A DNA stretch of 64,000 nucleotides from the human T2T-CHM13v2.0 reference genome, Homo sapiens: NCBI RefSeq assembly GCF_009914755.1, contig NC_060946.1, one strand, 5' to 3'. How positions within the stretch are numbered: position 1 is the first letter of the stretch; every line of letters begins with the position of its first letter. This document shows positions 2,673 through 46,528 of this stretch, piece after piece. Below the pieces are notes generated by a model. The model was not told the origin of the DNA. It worked only from the letters and a program-made list of their open reading frames with translations, and ran no database searches. Both the position numbers and the translations under genes were made by a program.

Positions 2673-2929
2673 TGAAGACTTTTAAATCACCACCATCATC
2701 AGTTATCTATCAGGACTCCCCTTGGGCATGTGATTAAGATGTGTATTGTTCAGGTAAAATAGTTGAGTAGTACCTACAAGTGACGTTATAACCTTCTTTT
2801 ACTCTTGATAAGAAGTTAGCCTTGGATATCTCAGATTCTTCAATAACCAATTATTAATGAAACTTAACACCTGCTGTACTTTTTAGACATCAAACTGTAA
2901 CAAGAACTCATATCAAAAAGACTACTTTC

Positions 2930-3215
2930 AGCCAGGCACAATGGCTCATGACTGTAATCCCAGCACTTTGGGGAGGTCGAGGTGGACGGATCACCTGAGG
3001 TCAGGAGTTCGAGCATGGTGAAACCTCGTCTCTACTAAAAATACAAAAATTAGCCGGGCGTGGGTGGCAGGCGCCTGTAATCCCAGCTACCTAGGAGGCC
3101 GAGGCAATTGCTTGAACCCAGGAGGCAGAGGATTCAGTGAGCCAAGATTGCCCCACTGCACTCCTGCCTGGGCAACAGAGCAACACTCCGTCTCAAAAAA
3201 AAAAAAAAAAAAAAA
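2930..3215 (+). mobile_element. Alu (AluS, small internal deletions)
   Basis: Dimer with A tail; gactacttt on both flanks. Confidence 0.9.
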
Positions 3216-13613: not shown

Positions 13614-13679
13614 GCGGCATGATCCCTTGGCTCACCAGTTCTTCCCGGGTCCGGCGCTGCTGGAGTTTCAACTGTAGCA
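13614..13679 (-). CDS. MRTFA: MRTFA internal coding exon (RPEL1 motif; contains the MPPLKS start Met)
   Basis: Minus strand: polypyrimidine tract, ctgcag|TG CTA CAG TTG AAA CTC CAG CAG CGC CGG ACC CGG GAA GAA CTG GTG AGC CAA GGG ATC ATG CCG C|gtaagt. 66 nt, phase 1/1. Peptide VLQLKLQQRRTREELVSQGIMP matches MRTF-A (MRTF-B has QLRL/EQLVD). ATG at 13620-13618. Confidence 0.97.
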
Positions 13680-14409
13680 CTGCAGGGCAGCAGAGAGAGA
13701 GGAGAGATGAGGGGTCAGTTGGGTATTCCACCTCAAAAAACACATTTTCAAACGCAAAAAAAGTCTAAAAACAGAAGGATGTAGTGTGAAAGAAGGGTCC
13801 CCTTGAAGTGCAACTGTCTGTAATTGCAGAAGTGGCCTGATACAGCAGAGTTTCCGTATTCTGCTGTGGGCGGTGAGAGGAAGTTGCGAAGGGTCTTGCA
13901 GGGCGATAACAATCCACAAAGCATCAGAGTCTTGCCTTTTGCTCAAAACCTCCAAAACACTGAGTCCTCCTCCTAAAACTTTTTTAAAAACACCTCTTCC
14001 AAACTCAAAATATCCTAACGAGGACCACCACCCAGCAAAAAAAGCTTTCCAGATGCTCTACGCTTAACAAATGTTTACCACCATAAGTATAGTGAATGAA
14101 AGAACTACTCACACAGATCAGGAAGTACTATTTGTAAACTCTTTTTCTTTTGTATCTAAAAATTATAGCCATTTCACCAAGCAATGCCTTTTTCTAGCCT
14201 AGAAAATATTTTACCGTTAATATGCCTCTGTTTTTCTTCTTTCTCTTCACTTAGAGCCTTTTCTGTTGAGGTGAAACAATTCAGCTAGATGACTCAAAGC
14301 ACATCCGGGCTAGGGGAGACTGATGGGTGTTTCTCTTATTTTCACTCTGGCAATACTGCTTAATGAAAAAACTTAATAGGGATTTTTTTTAAGTTAAAAA
14401 TCAACTATC

Positions 14410-39765: not shown

Positions 39766-40030
39766 TTTTTTTTTTTTTTTTATGGAGACGGAGTCTCGTT
39801 CTGTCGCCCAGGCTGGAGTGCAGTGTCGTGAACATGGTTCTAGCCTCCTGTGTAGCTGGGACCACAGGTGTACACCACCATGCCCAGCTAATTTTTTCAT
39901 TTTTTTTTTTCTAGAGACAGGGTCTCACTTTGAAGCCCAGCCTGGTCTCGAAATGCTGGGCTAAAGTGACCCTCCCAGACTCAGCCTCCCCAAGTGTTGG
40001 GATTACAGGCATGAGCCACTGCACCCAGCC
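39766..40030 (-). mobile_element. Alu with internal deletion
   Basis: Antisense; cataattt on both flanks. Confidence 0.85.
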
Positions 40031-40106
40031 CATAATTTGAGTCCTTTCAAGACTGAGTCAATATACAGAATTCTAAATGAAAGGTTCTAAGCACACTATA
40101 AAATCA

Positions 40107-40424
<318 letters not shown>

Positions 40425-40740
40425 TTAATTGCTTAGGGTAGTTATCTAACATTACCATTCTGATCCTACTTATCACAAGCCTGAATCTCTATTGCCTATA
40501 GGTTTTTTTTGCATGTAACACAGATATTTTTAATGATCAGATTGAAAATATGGAACATTACAATCTTTTGAATTACAAAGTCAAAGGTAGCAGCCCAAGT
40601 CCTAAGCCATACTATCCCCCGCCTCTCAAATAATCTTCCCTTTAATGTTGCCATGGTGTTTCTTTGACGTTAGTCCAGAACAGTTCTAGATATTCAAAGA
40701 AAAAGCAACTGCCTCTCAACCAATTCTTAAAACTATTCTC

Positions 40741-41056
<316 letters not shown>

Positions 41057-41482
41057 TATTCTCTCTGCAAACTGGGCACTGATAATCACTCCATCTCGTC
41101 TTCGATGTGTCCATTCATTGCTGACTCCACAGGCTCAAATCATCCTGTTAAAATTATTAAACTCCCAAAGAAATCTGGAAAACTCAAAAGAAATGTCTAA
41201 GTGTTTAGAAAAGTAGCATTTACATAATTATTATACATTGTATATAAATTCTGATAGTAGATAATTAGGGTTTCCAAGATAGGAGAAGAAAATATTGACA
41301 ATTCTCTTTTATTCATATTTGACAGGATTTGGATAAAGCTCCTATTGTCGTTTTTTTCATAACCTAGAACTCTTCTAAAAGAATTTTCCTCAAATTTAAA
41401 AGTGAACTTTTCTAAATAACTCAAATGTGTCCATTCTACTCCCAAAGGATTTTCTTTTCCTGCAGTATAAGACTATGAAAGA

Positions 41483-41781
41483 AGCCGAGCACGGTGGCTC
41501 ACACCTGTAATCCCAGCACTTTGGGAGGATGAGGCGGGAGGATCGCTTAAGGCTGGGGTTCAAGACCAGCATGGCCAAAATGGCAAAACCCCATCTCTAC
41601 AAAAAATATAAAAATTAGCCGGGTGCAGTGGTGCACGCCTGTAGTCCTAGCTACTCAGGAGGCTGAGGCTGGAGAATCACTTGGGCCCAGGAGGTGGAGG
41701 TTGCAGTGAGCCATGATTGAGCCACTGTACTCCAGCCTGGGCCACAGGAGTGAAAACCTGTCTTAAAAAAAAAACAAAACC
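41483..41781 (+). mobile_element. Alu (AluJ-like)
   Basis: TSD aagactatgaa. Confidence 0.9.
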
Positions 41782-42408
41782 AAGACTATGAAGGAAGGCT
41801 GTTCACATAGGCAAACTCTTTTAATATTGATAAGACCAGTCCAAATTGTTCACCCTAAGCAAAACTAAGACGCAATACAAGTAAAAAGCCTTCCAAGTGT
41901 TATTTTATTTTAAATTATGATGTCTTAGTGTTATAAACCTTAAAGGGTTATCTATCTACTTTCAAGTATTCAACAGACAGAAGAAACTGAAATGATCATC
42001 AATAGCTCCCATTTGTATAGTACCTAAGGCCAAAGTGCATTTTATGGATAAAACATTGAATCTGACCCACATAAAGAGTAATTCCGCCTTATTAAAGAAA
42101 AGTTTTTTCTTCCCTTATTCCACAATCTAGGCTTGGCTATATGAGCTCTGCACGGTGGGGAAAAAAGGAGTAAGAAAGTGAAACATCCTAATCACTGTTC
42201 CACCAGGTCATGAAATGCACCCTACAGTACTATGTTCAGTTATCTATTTGTTGGGTGCTCAACAAACTTTAATACAAATCCTGGGAGAATAAACCACCCA
42301 AAGTCAAAGCTTGGATGGCTACAGAGAAATAGGACTGGGATAAAAGACAGCAGTTAAGTTTGAAAGGAAACAAAAGCATGCAAATCCCAAAGGCACAAAT
42401 ACTCGAAC

Positions 42409-42541
42409 CTTCCCGCAAACTGTGATAATGGGTCAGGCACACTGCTGAGTAATAGCTGTCCTTTCTCGGCTTCAGGACAATCCACGAGAGTGGCAGAATC
42501 CTGCAGGTGGACTGATGAATCTTGGCCTTCTCCTCCAGCAT
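42409..42541 (-). CDS. MRTFA: Candidate alternative 5' coding exon of MRTFA (44 aa N-terminus; an in-frame upstream ATG at 42619 could add 26 aa)
   Basis: ORF MLEEKAKIHQSTCRILPLSWIVLKPRKDSYYSAVCLTHYHSLRE then G|GTTCGA, a phase-1 donor in frame with the 13679 acceptor (gives HSLRE-V-LQLKL). Positional similarity to the recalled MRTFB N-terminus. Repeat-free context. The donor is weak. Confidence 0.55.
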
Positions 42542-44282
42542 GCTGGAGGAGATTCGAGTCTCCACAGGCCAATGCTGCAATAAACCACTCTTCCTTCCCT
42601 CTCTCCTTAAAGAGGCCATTTATTATTTGCCGAAGATCTGATTAGCCCTGCTCTTTAAGTTAAAGTGGGCACTTCATTCTACAGTGCAAAGGGTTGCAAG
42701 AACAGTTAGATCCCAAGTTTACTTAGGGAGTGGGGCATTAAAAGCAGTGACAGCAGAAGGTCAGAATCAGTAACTCTACTGGCAAAACATTTCTTCCTGT
42801 CAGCACTGGGCCTAGACACAGACACCTCCCTCTTCTATCCAAATGCCAAAAAGCAGAACTGAGATGATTTCAATGTGTAGAGCTGGAAGAGGAGAGGGTT
42901 CCCTTAGAGAAAATGCTCATAGCAACCAACCAACCTCATTCACCCAAAATAGTAAACAGTTGGTTTCTCTGCTCAGAACCAAAAGGCTTCTGCCAGACAA
43001 GCAGTATCACATGACTAGGTTCCCTCTTCTCTCTCTTGCCCTCCCTCCCTTCTTGTACAAAGCCTGCACCCAAAATGGAACAAGGAGCTATAACACAACA
43101 TTATTTTACTGGACACATTCATCTTTAAAATGTTTGAAGATAAAAGGTACCAAAAAGCAGAGGGGGGAGGTACCAAAGGAAAAACTCAGGAAGAATTTAC
43201 TTTGAAAAAAGTCCTATCACAGTACTGATGTGGGAACCATAAACGTAATGGTTAACTGGCAAGTGTACTCAATGAATGAAAAAACAAATGGACACTTCTC
43301 ACCAATTTGTAAACACTTTGCTGACAAAATATTTAAAAGAAGATACAGTTCAATACATATTTGACCTTTCCTTTAGAAAGACAATATAGGCTCTTAAGAT
43401 GCTGGCTAGAGTCAGAGATAATATATTGGCACAATAGTGACAACCCACCAAAATTTGGGATTCAAACCCTTATCTTGTTGACCTCAGCTTACCTCACCAT
43501 TTGATTTTACTCCTTGTATGTCACAGTCCCATCATTCACATCATTAGGAAGGAAATCAGGACAGCTACACTAACAGGCAACTGAAAAATCTACCCAGCTG
43601 ATTATGAAAACAAAGGCCACCATGACACTGGCATTTCCACCTAAACAGAAGGGGGAAGATATTAAGGCTGACAGCACAGCTGGAACCAGATGTGCCACCA
43701 TATTCTTCTCCCTACAAGGTTCCTCACACTTGAAAGCTAAGCGAGGCATGCAGTATAGAGACACAAAAATGAAAACCTCTATGCTGATCAATCTGTTCCA
43801 CTAGGAAACTAGATAAAGTATAAGAATCAAAAGTGTCACAATCATCTGCCATGACCTCTACTCACAGGGCCAACAGGGGCACTTTGAGAGTAAAATCACT
43901 GATGCTCGTCCATCCCTTGCACTGTAAACTGCTCAATAAATATTTATAAAGTGGAAAGAAAAGGAAAAGGAAAATGAAAGAGGAAAAATTTACATGAGAA
44001 ATCCTTAATTTAAGCAACAATTTTTCCAGCAAGAGCATGTGGAGATTGTTACTTGGCTACTGTCAGAATACAAATACCAGCAATAAATGATTTGTCATCA
44101 AGGATGAGGAGCAACTGGAACTCCCAGACATTACTGAGGAGGATGGAAAACGATAATGCTATGTAGAAAAACAGTTTGGGAGTTTCTTATAAATTTACAC
44201 TTACCATAAAACCCAGTAATCCTATTCCTGAGTATTTATCTAAGAGAAGTGAAAACATACATCCACATAAAGAACTGTACAT

Positions 44283-44727
44283 TGTCTTTGGATAATAGTG
44301 TTTAGGTCTCAGTTCTGTGCCTGATGTAAATTGTCTACCTTGTTTCACCTAAGAAGCGTGTCTTTGGAAATGTGAATTTAGAGTTGCCTAGCTAACAACT
44401 CTTCAGGGGAATGAAGCAGGTAATTGAAATTGATAGTCTAAAGTGGGAGAGAGAAACTATTTGAAAACTGGTAAATGAAAGATCTTAGATTTCTGTGTGT
44501 CTCTATGCCTATATGGTTTATATGTGTCACGTGTATGTGGTATTTCACTACCAAATTATATTAAAGAGCTCTTATCTATTGGCTTAGAGAAAAGTGCTTT
44601 TCTATTGTCTCTGAAATAAAAATAAACTCAAATGCCTTTTAGTTCATCTGACTTTAGTAATAAAGGGAGATATTATTATTTTATATTAATTGTAATTAAC
44701 ATGTCATTAAAACTACTAGGTTAAAAA
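44283..44727 (+). mobile_element. LTR-less ERV1 (MER4-group) internal fragment inserted in an old L1
   Basis: Motifs such as tatttcactaccaaattatattaaagagctc...aatgccttttagttcatctgactttagtaat resemble MER4-group internal sequence. ATTAAA 44706 then a short A-tail. Degenerate TSD 44269-44282 / 44728-44741. Confidence 0.6.
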
Positions 44728-44818
44728 AAAGAGCTATATGTGAATATTCGTAGCAGCTTTATTTGTGATTGCCAAAAAGTGTTCTTCAACTTGTGAATGG
44801 AATAAAAAATTATATACA

Positions 44819-45117
44819 GGCCAGATGCGGTGGCTCATGCCTGTAATCCCAACAGTTTGGGAGGCCAAGGTAGGAGGATCACTTGAACCCAAGGAGTTCA
44901 AGACCAACCAGGGCAATATAGTGAGACCTCTTCTCTACAAAAACCTTAAAAAATTAGCCAGGTATACTGGTGTGCACCTGTAATCCCAGCTACTCAGGAG
45001 GCTAAGGTAGGAGCATCACTCGAGCCCAGGGGGCGAAGGCTGCAGTGAGCCGAGATCATGCCACTGCACTCCAGCCTGGGTAACAGAGCCAGACTCTGTC
45101 TAAAAAAAAAAAAAAAA
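44819..45117 (+). mobile_element. Alu (AluJ-like) inside L1
   Basis: Sense dimer; aaaaaattat on both flanks. Confidence 0.88.
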
Positions 45118-45511
45118 TTATGGTACACCCCTTTAACAGAATACTACTTCAGCAATTTTTAAAAACCCAATAAACTATTGTTACAGGAAACAACACTGAT
45201 GAACCTCAAAAGCACTATTATGCTAAAAGAAGCCAGAAGGCTTCAAGGCAAAACAACAGGCAGAAATCAGATCAGTGATTGCCAAGGGCTGGGAAACAGG
45301 GAAGGAGACTCTACAAAGAGGCATAATGGAATTTTGGGAGGTGATGGAAATAATCTATATGTCTTGATAAAAGGTGGTGGTTTACCTTTTAGCAAAACTC
45401 ACTGAACTGTACCCCTAAAAAAGTGACTATTACTGCATATAAACTGATCTCAACTTTTTTTTTTTTAAAAAAGCAGATTACAAGATATTATGCATAGTTA
45501 AGAGTACAGGC

Positions 45512-46528
<1,017 letters not shown>

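What the first reader, a model, noticed from the sequence alone, without database searches (positions are those of the whole stretch)
42409..42619. Hidden alternative N-terminal exon of MRTFA that looks paralogous to the MRTFB first coding exon
Seen: a minus-strand ORF in a repeat-free stretch (about 41.8-44.1 kb) of an otherwise Alu-saturated intron. It reads M(42541)LEEKAKIHQSTCRILPLSWIVLKPRKDSYYSAVCLTHYHSLRE, then G|GTTCGAGT, a phase-1 GT at 42408. The RPEL1 exon (13679) is phase 1, so splicing gives ...HSLRE-V-LQLKLQQRRTREEL. Recalled knowledge: human MRTF-B begins MIDSSKKQQQGFPEILTAGDFEPLKEKECLEGSNQKSLKE-VLQLRLQQ. The two share M-[LI]-[ED], K7, Q10, I15-L16, a [LF]-x-P-x-K-[DE] block, CL and a terminal S-L-[RK]-E at the same splice position. 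Inference: an ancient alternative first exon, older than the MRTFA/MRTFB duplication, giving a full three-RPEL MRTF-A isoform with a distinct N-terminus from an internal promoter. It may match one of the described alternative-5'-exon rodent isoforms or a predicted transcript; I cannot check its annotation status. The human donor (AAG|GTTCGA) is weak, so the exon may be rare, tissue-restricted or decaying.
Basis: partly seen in the sequence, partly recalled or inferred. Interest (0 to 1): 0.9.

Follow-up and report, generated by a model that had tools for sequence, protein, structure and literature searches.

The report
Ancient unannotated MRTFA start-codon exon
A short stretch inside a long intron of the human MRTFA gene looks like the human counterpart of a start-codon exon that fish MRTFA genes and human MRTFB use, but whether human cells still use it has not been tested.

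Summary
On the minus strand, an ATG at 42541 opens 44 codons (MLEE...YHSLRE). They end in G|GT at 42409/42408, in the phase that the RPEL1 exon at 13679 needs. RefSeq annotates no exon here, and two reviews and the rat isoform paper describe none. Against the MRTFB exon alone the likeness is marginal: the local alignment is not significant, and the family-wise p of the global one is about 0.05-0.1. The decisive evidence came from fish. Several teleost MRTFA proteins begin with a 43-residue N-terminus, MLD...HVYHSLKE, placed directly before V-LQLKLQQRR. The human stretch shares its start (ML[DE]), its length and its last six residues. A degenerate pattern for those six residues plus the donor occurs 13 times in the whole genome, and one of the 13 is this site. 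None of 19,272 null pseudo-exons reaches the end score. I conclude it is a true counterpart of an ancient MRTF start-codon exon, lying in the same gene order as in MRTFB. Use in humans is untested. The donor is weak, the interior is unlike its relatives, and no transcript is known. An acceptor-like CAG one base before the ATG suggests an internal exon rather than one needing its own promoter.

The parts
42409..42541 (-). Candidate coding part of the exon: ATG plus 43 codons plus the first base (G) of a split Val codon; 133 nt
   Evidence: for the sequence. for homology of its two ends to the teleost MRTFA N-terminus.
42407..42408 (-). GT of the phase-1 donor (AAG|GTTCGA), matching 6 of 9 consensus positions
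   Evidence: On the minus strand, 609 of 3621 GT sites score 6 or more. The five known donors compared score 7-8.
42410..42427 (-). Last six codons, TAT CAC AGT TTG CGG GAA = YHSLRE, the part shared with fish YHSLKE
   Evidence: one of 13 genome-wide matches to the degenerate pattern; 0 of 4221 plus 0 of 15051 null pseudo-exons reach this end score.
42543..42552 (-). Acceptor-like site TCTCCTCCAG immediately before C-ATG; using it would give a 134-nt internal exon, 42542-42409
   Evidence: Splicing was not tested.
42529..42552 (-). Perfect 24-nt palindrome centred on the ATG; in RNA it forms a 10-bp hairpin with the AUG in the loop
   Evidence: self inverted match.: -33.6 kcal/mol for the 81 nt folded, z = -2.65.
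42269..42619 (-). The whole 116-aa ORF; it runs past both proposed exon ends, and those parts are taken as chance
13614..13679 (-). Annotated RPEL1 exon of MRTFA, the phase-1 acceptor partner

Best explanation
The stretch is the human orthologue of an ancient start-codon exon of the MRTF family. Teleost MRTFA genes use that exon as their N-terminus. Human MRTFB keeps a paralogous copy, the MIDSS...SLKE exon. The human MRTFA copy still has everything it needs to work: a CAG acceptor-like site one base before the ATG, the ATG, 44 open codons, the conserved YHSLRE end, and a GT donor in the phase required by the RPEL1 exon. Spliced to exon 4, it would give an AUG-initiated MRTF-A of 995 residues with three RPEL motifs. 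Its RPEL1 would be preceded by SLRE-V instead of the ERKN-V of the full-length form. I infer that the exon is used rarely or in few tissues, and that it is spliced from the upstream non-coding exons rather than driven by its own promoter. Homology is shown by sequence. Splicing, transcription and translation are inferred.
For: Fish N-termini. Fourteen of the 124 proteins held showed sequence before the RPEL1 motif. Five of those 14 have this exon type: P0011, P0012 and P0123 read MLD...HVYHSLKE|V, P0121 reads MLE...ACQSLRQ|V, and P0030 reads ...YCSSVKE|V.

Orthology. The RPEL1 exon of P0011, P0012 and P0123 is 22 of 22 identical to human MRTFA, against 74% to MRTFB.

End score. The ungapped last-six score of the human stretch against the fish exons is 30. 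It is reached by 0 of 4221 real-sequence null pseudo-exons, 0 of 15051 simulated ones and 0 of 3000 shuffles.

Genome-wide count. A degenerate pattern for YH-S-L-[KR]-E plus GGT has 13 matches on both strands of the genome, and one is this site. About 3.6e-4 matches are expected in the 175 kb of sense strand upstream of the RPEL1 exon.

Other shared features. An in-frame ATG-CTG-GAG (MLE) lies 44 codons upstream; fish have MLD or MLE at 43 codons. The order FL-type exon, then this exon, then RPEL1 exon is the same in MRTFA and MRTFB. The acceptor-like CAG parallels MRTFB. The stretch is single-copy DNA.
Against: - No RefSeq transcript, curated or predicted, uses the exon, and no RefSeq enhancer or silencer lies at 42-43 kb.
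- The 2021 review counts five human transcript variants, none with this exon (passages read).
- In the rat study, 5'-RACE found the FL, BSAC and MELODY 5' exons only (passages read).
- The donor matches only 6 of 9 consensus positions, with T at +3 and C at +4.
- The interior 35 residues show no likeness to fish or to MRTFB. Their make-up is that of random intronic translation: W/Y/F/H/C fraction 0.205 against a null of 0.194, where the long real exons have 0.04-0.075.
- Whole-length global scores against the fish exons are not significant family-wise; 35-43% of 60 simulated 64-kb strands reach them.
- The AUG sits in a stable hairpin.
- No named protein of 64-203 aa shares words with the ORF.
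- I chose the end-anchored statistic after seeing the match.
- I could examine no tetrapod sequence.
Confidence: 0.5

Rival explanations
1. Homologous relic. The stretch descends from the ancient start-codon exon but is no longer spliced or translated in humans. It lost its use recently enough that the ATG, the frame, the end motif and the GT are still intact.
For: It is absent from RefSeq models and from the reported variants. The donor is weak. The interior has a random-like make-up with no likeness to its relatives. The ORF runs on past both exon ends, as an unconstrained frame would.
Against: By my own rough estimate of the decay rate, a long-dead exon would have lost the ATG, the open frame, the six-residue end and the GT together. 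Keeping all of them points to constraint until recently. Loss only in the recent past is a narrow time window compared with more than 400 million years of retention.
Confidence: 0.35
2. Regulatory cassette exon. The conserved ends serve splicing, not protein. Inserted after the full-length exon (exon 3), the 134-nt exon shifts the frame and brings an early stop, lowering MRTF-A output; after exon 3' the same length shifts the frame too.
For: An acceptor-like CAG sits at 42543. The exon length of 134 nt is not a multiple of three. Read in the phase of the full-length exon, it meets a stop after 23 codons.
Against: In fish the same exon supplies the protein's N-terminus. What is shared is seen at the amino-acid level, including the ATG. 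No inclusion event is annotated.
Confidence: 0.08
3. Chance. This is an ordinary intronic ORF whose ends happen to resemble the fish and MRTFB exons.
For: ORFs this long are common: eight of 116 aa or more in the window. There are 203 ATG-to-phase-1-GT pseudo-exons upstream of the RPEL1 exon. Against MRTFB alone the family-wise p is only about 0.05-0.1, and an Alu-like pseudo-exon at 3016 scores as high. The local alignment is not significant.
Against: The six-residue end plus donor is one of 13 such sites in 6.2 Gb, and it lies on the right strand of the right intron. The MLE start at the right distance and the open frame are further, independent coincidences. None of 19,272 null pseudo-exons reaches the end score.
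Confidence: 0.05

Closest known systems
Teleost MRTFA (mrtfaa/mrtfab) N-terminal coding exon, as in database proteins P0011 (Mugilogobius chulae), P0123 (Larimichthys crocea), P0121 (Nibea albiflora) and P0030 (Denticeps clupeoides)
   Same: It starts ML[DE] and is 43 residues long against 44 in the human stretch. It ends YHSLKE against human YHSLRE, directly before V-LQLKLQQRR. The RPEL1 exon that follows is identical to human MRTFA.
   Different: The interior 35 residues are unrelated: acidic and proline-rich in fish, basic and hydrophobic in human. The fish proteins are gene models in databases. I could not read their genomic exon boundaries.
Human MRTFB start-codon exon (chr16:14224183-14224303 in T2T; MIDSS...NQKSLKE)
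   Same: It starts M-[IL]-[DE] and is 40 aa against 44. It ends SL[KR]E followed by G|GT in phase 1, joined to V-LQL. It lies between the FL-type exon and the RPEL1 exon, and a CAG acceptor-like site lies shortly before the ATG.
   Different: The MRTFB donor matches 8 of 9 consensus positions against 6 of 9 here. The MRTFB peptide is polar. The interiors do not align, and the local alignment has p = 0.37. That it is the usual MRTFB start is from recall, not from a call.
MRTFA exon 3' (BSAC / MKL1_S / transcript variant 5; chr22:41004176-41004413)
   Same: It is an alternative 5' coding exon in the same gene, ATG-initiated with a phase-1 donor, joined to the same RPEL1 exon, and gives a three-RPEL protein.
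   Different: It is only 15 codons long (MTLLEPEMLMMAVQS) and unrelated in sequence. It lies 42 kb further upstream, has a strong donor, and is annotated and shown experimentally.
Rat MELODY isoform of MKL1 (PMC3821035)
   Same: It is an alternative 5' exon of MRTFA expressed at very low levels.
   Different: MELODY's new exon splices to the full-length exon 3 and shares that exon's reverse PCR primer. Its FLAG construct starts at GGAGGGGTTACCATC, which I translate as G-G-V-T-I. It therefore lies upstream of exon 3 and not in this intron.

Membership tests
MRTF start-codon exon of the M-[LI]-[DE] ... S-L-[KR]-E|V type (teleost MRTFA, human MRTFB) | Begins with Met followed by Leu or Ile, then Asp or Glu | tested here: met
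   MLE in human against MLD or MLE in fish and MID in MRTFB.
MRTF start-codon exon of the M-[LI]-[DE] ... S-L-[KR]-E|V type (teleost MRTFA, human MRTFB) | Ends S-L-[KR]-[EQ], with a split Val codon (phase 1) leading into LQL[KR]LQQ of RPEL1 | tested here: met
   YHSLRE followed by G|GT. The RPEL1 exon supplies TG. The end score of 30 is reached by 0 of 19,272 nulls. The site is one of 13 genome-wide pattern matches.
MRTF start-codon exon of the M-[LI]-[DE] ... S-L-[KR]-E|V type (teleost MRTFA, human MRTFB) | Coding length of about 40-44 residues | tested here: met
   44 aa, against 43 in four fish proteins and 40 in MRTFB. P0030 has 29.
MRTF start-codon exon of the M-[LI]-[DE] ... S-L-[KR]-E|V type (teleost MRTFA, human MRTFB) | Lies on the sense strand between the FL-type exon and the RPEL1 exon | tested here: met
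   MRTFA: FL exon at 41024064, candidate at 40962409, RPEL1 exon at 40933679. MRTFB: FL-type exon at about 14178021, MIDSS exon at 14224183, RPEL1 exon at 14247510.
MRTF start-codon exon of the M-[LI]-[DE] ... S-L-[KR]-E|V type (teleost MRTFA, human MRTFB) | Interior residues alignable with other members (the teleost paralogues align without gaps, global score 57-66) | tested here: not met
   Human against fish gives global scores of -9 to 12. Family-wise, 35-43% of 60 simulated strands reach this. MRTFB against fish is equally weak, -9 to 12.
MRTF start-codon exon of the M-[LI]-[DE] ... S-L-[KR]-E|V type (teleost MRTFA, human MRTFB) | Transcribed and spliced to the RPEL1 exon | not testable with these tools
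   No reads or junction tables were available. RefSeq has no such transcript.
MRTF start-codon exon of the M-[LI]-[DE] ... S-L-[KR]-E|V type (teleost MRTFA, human MRTFB) | Conserved in frame across tetrapods | not testable with these tools
   No vertebrate genomes were on hand. The 120 proteins listed were fish, birds and one lizard. The bird entries are mostly partial and lack the N-terminus.
Reported MRTFA 5' forms (full length/MKL1_L, BSAC/MKL1_S/TV5, MKL1met/TV2, MELODY) | Uses one of the reported 5' exons | tested here: not met
   The annotated 5' exons lie at 41024064-41024325, 41004176-41004413 and window 13614-13833. MELODY splices to exon 3. None overlaps 42409-42541.

The most novel reading that the evidence does not exclude
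Human MRTFA still makes a fourth, AUG-initiated, three-RPEL isoform of 995 residues from this exon in some tissue or stage. The ancestral vertebrate MRTF gene already had this start-codon exon alongside the FL-type exon. On that view MRTFB kept it, by recall as its usual start, and MRTFA demoted it. The SL[KR]E-V lead-in to RPEL1 would be a conserved functional alternative to the ERKN-V lead-in, which carries an ERK-docking motif in MRTFB isoform 3.
Probability: 0.35. Interest if true: 0.65.

Novelty: new member of a known kind. Interest (0 to 1): 0.55.

Why it matters
MRTF-A links actin dynamics to SRF-driven transcription. Its isoforms differ exactly at this point, in what precedes or replaces RPEL1, and that difference affects actin binding, localisation and kinase docking.

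A conserved start-codon exon that is missing from RefSeq would add an isoform that antibodies, knock-outs, and exon-based fusion and variant interpretation do not currently consider.

It would also show that the choice among several 5' exons in MRTF genes goes back to early vertebrates. The exon is at least as old as the bony-vertebrate ancestor, and older than the MRTFA/MRTFB duplication if the MRTFB paralogy holds.

If the exon is only a relic, it is still a clean example of an exon kept for hundreds of millions of years and then abandoned.

Tried and rejected
1. Chance ORF was my working view up. Against MRTFB alone the evidence is marginal. The local alignment gives p = 0.37 (gaps 11/1) and 0.08 (gaps 8/1). 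The global alignment gives z of about 5 against shuffles. Of 4221 null pseudo-exons, 0 reach the stricter global score and 2 reach the looser one. There are 203 candidates upstream of the RPEL1 exon in the window, and one Alu-like pseudo-exon at 3016 scores equally. I dropped this view after the fish N-termini.

2. Identity with known isoforms is rejected.

3. Repeat origin: the DNA at 42200-42800 matches only itself in the genome. The 44-aa peptide also matches only itself.

4. Protein databases:
- The 116-aa ORF found no named protein of 64-203 aa. Eighteen sample-only candidates were left out unseen.
- Pfam found nothing for the ORF or for the MRTFB exon.
- The Atlas gave no usable hit.
- Rfam found nothing at 40000-46000.

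5. CpG content does not discriminate. The candidate region has a CpG observed/expected ratio of 0.14. The known alternative 5' exons have 0.18-0.29.

6. Whole-length similarity to the fish exons is not significant family-wise. Only the two ends carry the signal.

7. Literature. Searches found no paper describing an MRTFA exon here. I read passages of PMC3821035, PMC8593110 and PMC8079280, not whole texts. Their figures and supplements, which hold the isoform sequences, were not visible. GENCODE/Ensembl and other species' RefSeq models could not be consulted, so 'unannotated' means RefSeq T2T only.

8. The last protein search listed only the best 120 of 1118 hits, all fish, birds and one lizard, within 304-966 aa. 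Mammalian isoforms, and any of about 995 aa, were out of reach. Clustering at 90% identity hides isoforms.
Full report
**What is there**

On the minus strand, an ORF of 116 codons spans 42269-42619. An internal ATG at 42541 opens 44 codons, MLEEKAKIHQSTCRILPLSWIVLKPRKDSYYSAVCLTHYHSLRE. A single G at 42409 follows, then GT (AAG|GTTCGA).

The annotated RPEL1 exon starts at 13679 after CAG. Its first two bases, TG, would complete G+TG = Val ahead of LQLKLQQRRTREELVSQGIMP.

Its recalled MRTFB peptide is also correct. I located the exon at chr16:14224183 with a short degenerate pattern and read it from the genome. It translates to MIDSSKKQQQGFPEILTAGDFEPLKEKECLEGSNQKSLKE, followed by G|GTCAGT. The MRTFB RPEL1 exon lies 23 kb further on.

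**Annotation and literature**

RefSeq for this assembly has five MRTFA transcripts with three kinds of 5' coding end:
- The full-length exon at chr22:41024064-41024325. It has a non-AUG start and ends ...LPPLSERKN|V.
- Exon 3' at 41004176-41004413, reading MTLLEPEMLMMAVQS|V.
- The extended exon 4 at window 13614-13833, whose ATG lies at 13620.

Nothing is annotated at 42.4 kb. No RefSeq enhancer or silencer lies between 22.9 and 48.9 kb of the window.

A 2021 review counts five human transcript variants, the same number as the RefSeq models (passages). The rat isoform paper and a 2021 review list FL, MKL1met, BSAC and MELODY. MELODY's new exon splices to exon 3, and the coding region cloned for it starts at a DNA string that translates to G-G-V-T-I, so it is not this exon (passages).

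**Is the likeness to MRTFB more than chance?**

Taken alone, barely.
- Local alignment is not significant: p = 0.37 at gap penalties 11/1 and p = 0.08 at 8/1.
- Global alignment scores 14 and 29 under two gap settings. That is about 5 sd above shuffles.
- I built a fairer null from every ATG-to-phase-1-GT 'pseudo-exon' of 25-70 codons. The candidate ranks first or second of 256 on the window's minus strand. An Alu-like pseudo-exon at 3016 equals it.
- Of 4221 null pseudo-exons from other introns and reversed sequence, 0 reach the first score and 2 reach the second.
- With 203 candidates upstream of the RPEL1 exon, the family-wise p is about 0.05-0.1.

Other features looked ordinary at that stage:
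- Eight ORFs of at least 116 aa occur in the window.
- The donor matches 6 of 9 consensus positions, as do 609 of 3621 GT sites. The five known donors compared match 7-8.
- The peptide's make-up equals that of random intronic translation.
- The true paralogous pair of FL-type exons is found easily, at 52% identity over 64 residues and E = 3.8e-11.
- No named protein of 64-203 aa matches the ORF.

**The turn**

I wanted to see the N-termini of MRTFA in other vertebrates. I first searched with the large MRTFA exon. I then searched with an alignment of a 552-aa fish hit and the 44-aa peptide.

Of the 124 proteins held, 14 showed sequence before the RPEL1 motif.
- P0011: MLDTNHCLSFEPSPSECSPIGEDFDKEALKMDLDRHVYHSLKE|V
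- P0012 and P0123: close variants of P0011
- P0121: MLEHLPCVRIDPAPLRPPSISRNMDERAIRFELERQACQSLRQ|V
- P0030: ...GRSYCSSVKE|V

Three of the 14 carry the FL-type N-terminus (P0024, P0037 and P0111). A fourth protein, P0096, starts with it but did not match my RPEL1 pattern.

These fish proteins are MRTFA orthologues. In P0011, P0012 and P0123 the RPEL1 exon is 22 of 22 identical to human MRTFA, against 74% to MRTFB. The large exon is 47-50% identical in P0011 and P0012.

The human stretch shares three things with them. It has the start ML[DE]. It has the length, 44 against 43. It has the last six residues before the junction, YHSLRE against YHSLKE.

**Statistics of the new match**

- The ungapped score of the last six residues against the fish exons is 30.
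- It is reached by 0 of 4221 real-sequence nulls and 0 of 15051 simulated ones. For the last eight residues the counts are 0 of 4221 and 1 of 15051. None of 60 simulated 64-kb strands reaches it on six residues, and 1 of 60 does on eight.
- None of 3000 shuffles reaches it.
By my translation only three encode exactly that peptide. One of the 13 is this site.
- The expected number in the 175 kb of sense strand upstream of the RPEL1 exon is 13 x 175,000 / 6.23e9 = 3.6e-4.
- An in-frame ATG-CTG-GAG within a codon or two of the fish distance, and an open frame between, are further coincidences. I estimate them at about 1e-4 to 1e-3. That figure is an analytic estimate, not a call.

Three caveats apply. 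I chose the end-anchored statistic after seeing the match. Whole-length global scores are not significant family-wise, since 35-43% of simulated strands reach them. The interior does not align.

Even allowing a generous factor for the post hoc choice, chance is unlikely. I put homology at about 0.9.

**Relation to MRTFB**

The MRTFB exon resembles the fish MRTFA exons about as weakly as the human candidate does in whole-length scores. Its global score is 12, reached by 40 of 3000 shuffles. Its end scores are reached by 7-15 of 3000.

It shares the M-[IL]-D start, the SLKE|V end and the length class. The order FL-type exon, then this exon, then RPEL1 exon is the same in both genes.

An origin before the MRTFA/MRTFB duplication is therefore plausible but less secure than the human-fish orthology.

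**How it would work**

Spliced to exon 4, the exon gives a coding sequence of 2988 nt, which is 995 residues with all three RPEL motifs.

A CAG preceded by TCTCCTC lies one base before the ATG. In MRTFB a CAG with a good pyrimidine tract lies 12 bases before the ATG. The exon may therefore be internal, 134 nt long, and spliced from the non-coding exons 1-2.

Inserted after the coding exon 3, it shifts the frame and meets a stop after 23 codons. After exon 3', which ends in the same phase, the frame shifts too. A regulatory, non-productive role is thus a minor rival.

The ATG is the centre of a perfect 24-nt palindrome. In RNA that gives a 10-bp hairpin with the AUG in the loop (-33.6 kcal/mol for 81 nt, z = -2.65). 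Its meaning is unknown.

**Functional or relic?**

Arguments for present use: the ATG, the frame, the phase, the GT and the end motif have all been kept over the time since the split from ray-finned fish. By my own reasoning, long neutral decay would have erased them.

Arguments against: there is no RefSeq model, no report in human or rodent studies, a weak donor and an unconstrained-looking interior.

I give about 0.5 to an exon that is still used at a low level or in few tissues. I give 0.35 to a recently abandoned relic, 0.08 to a regulatory cassette and 0.05 to chance.

**What could not be done**

I had no reads, no CAGE data, no vertebrate genome alignments and no GENCODE or other-species gene models. 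Supplements and figures of the isoform papers were not visible.

The protein search reaches only cluster representatives within a length window. It listed 120 of 1118 hits, none of them mammalian.

**Verdict**

It is a new member of a known kind, and of moderate interest.

Noticed in passing
window 42529-42552: A perfect 24-nt palindrome, TCTCCTCCAGCATGCTGGAGGAGA, is centred on the candidate ATG. Its left arm is the pyrimidine tract plus the AG of the acceptor-like site, and its right arm encodes L-E-E. It contains GCATG, which from recall is the RBFOX-type motif. By my estimate a perfect 12+12 palindrome is expected about 0.004 times per 64 kb.
   Followed up: partly
window 42843-43205 (+): A 120-aa ATG ORF lies on the opposite strand in the same unmasked stretch.
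   Followed up: no
window 2926-3016 (-): An Alu-like pseudo-exon, [30 protein letters not shown], scores as high against the MRTFB exon as the candidate does (global score 15). It shows how easily such likeness arises.
   Followed up: yes
protein P0012: This protein is labelled Lampetra planeri but is 62-73% identical over its length to teleost MRTFA proteins, and its N-terminus is nearly the teleost one. The species label looks doubtful (contamination or mislabelling). I did not use it as evidence for a lamprey origin.
   Followed up: partly
L010 7863-8021 (chr16, about 14177863-14178021): This is the MRTFB counterpart of the MRTFA full-length exon 3 (…SPQSEAVAHEFQELSLQ…NLPPLNERKN). It has an in-frame Met near its start, whereas RefSeq gives the human MRTFA exon a non-AUG start.
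   Followed up: no
window 1-64000: Only 31% of the window is masked as repeats of 100 bases or more. Seven unmasked stretches are at least 1.5 kb long.
   Followed up: yes
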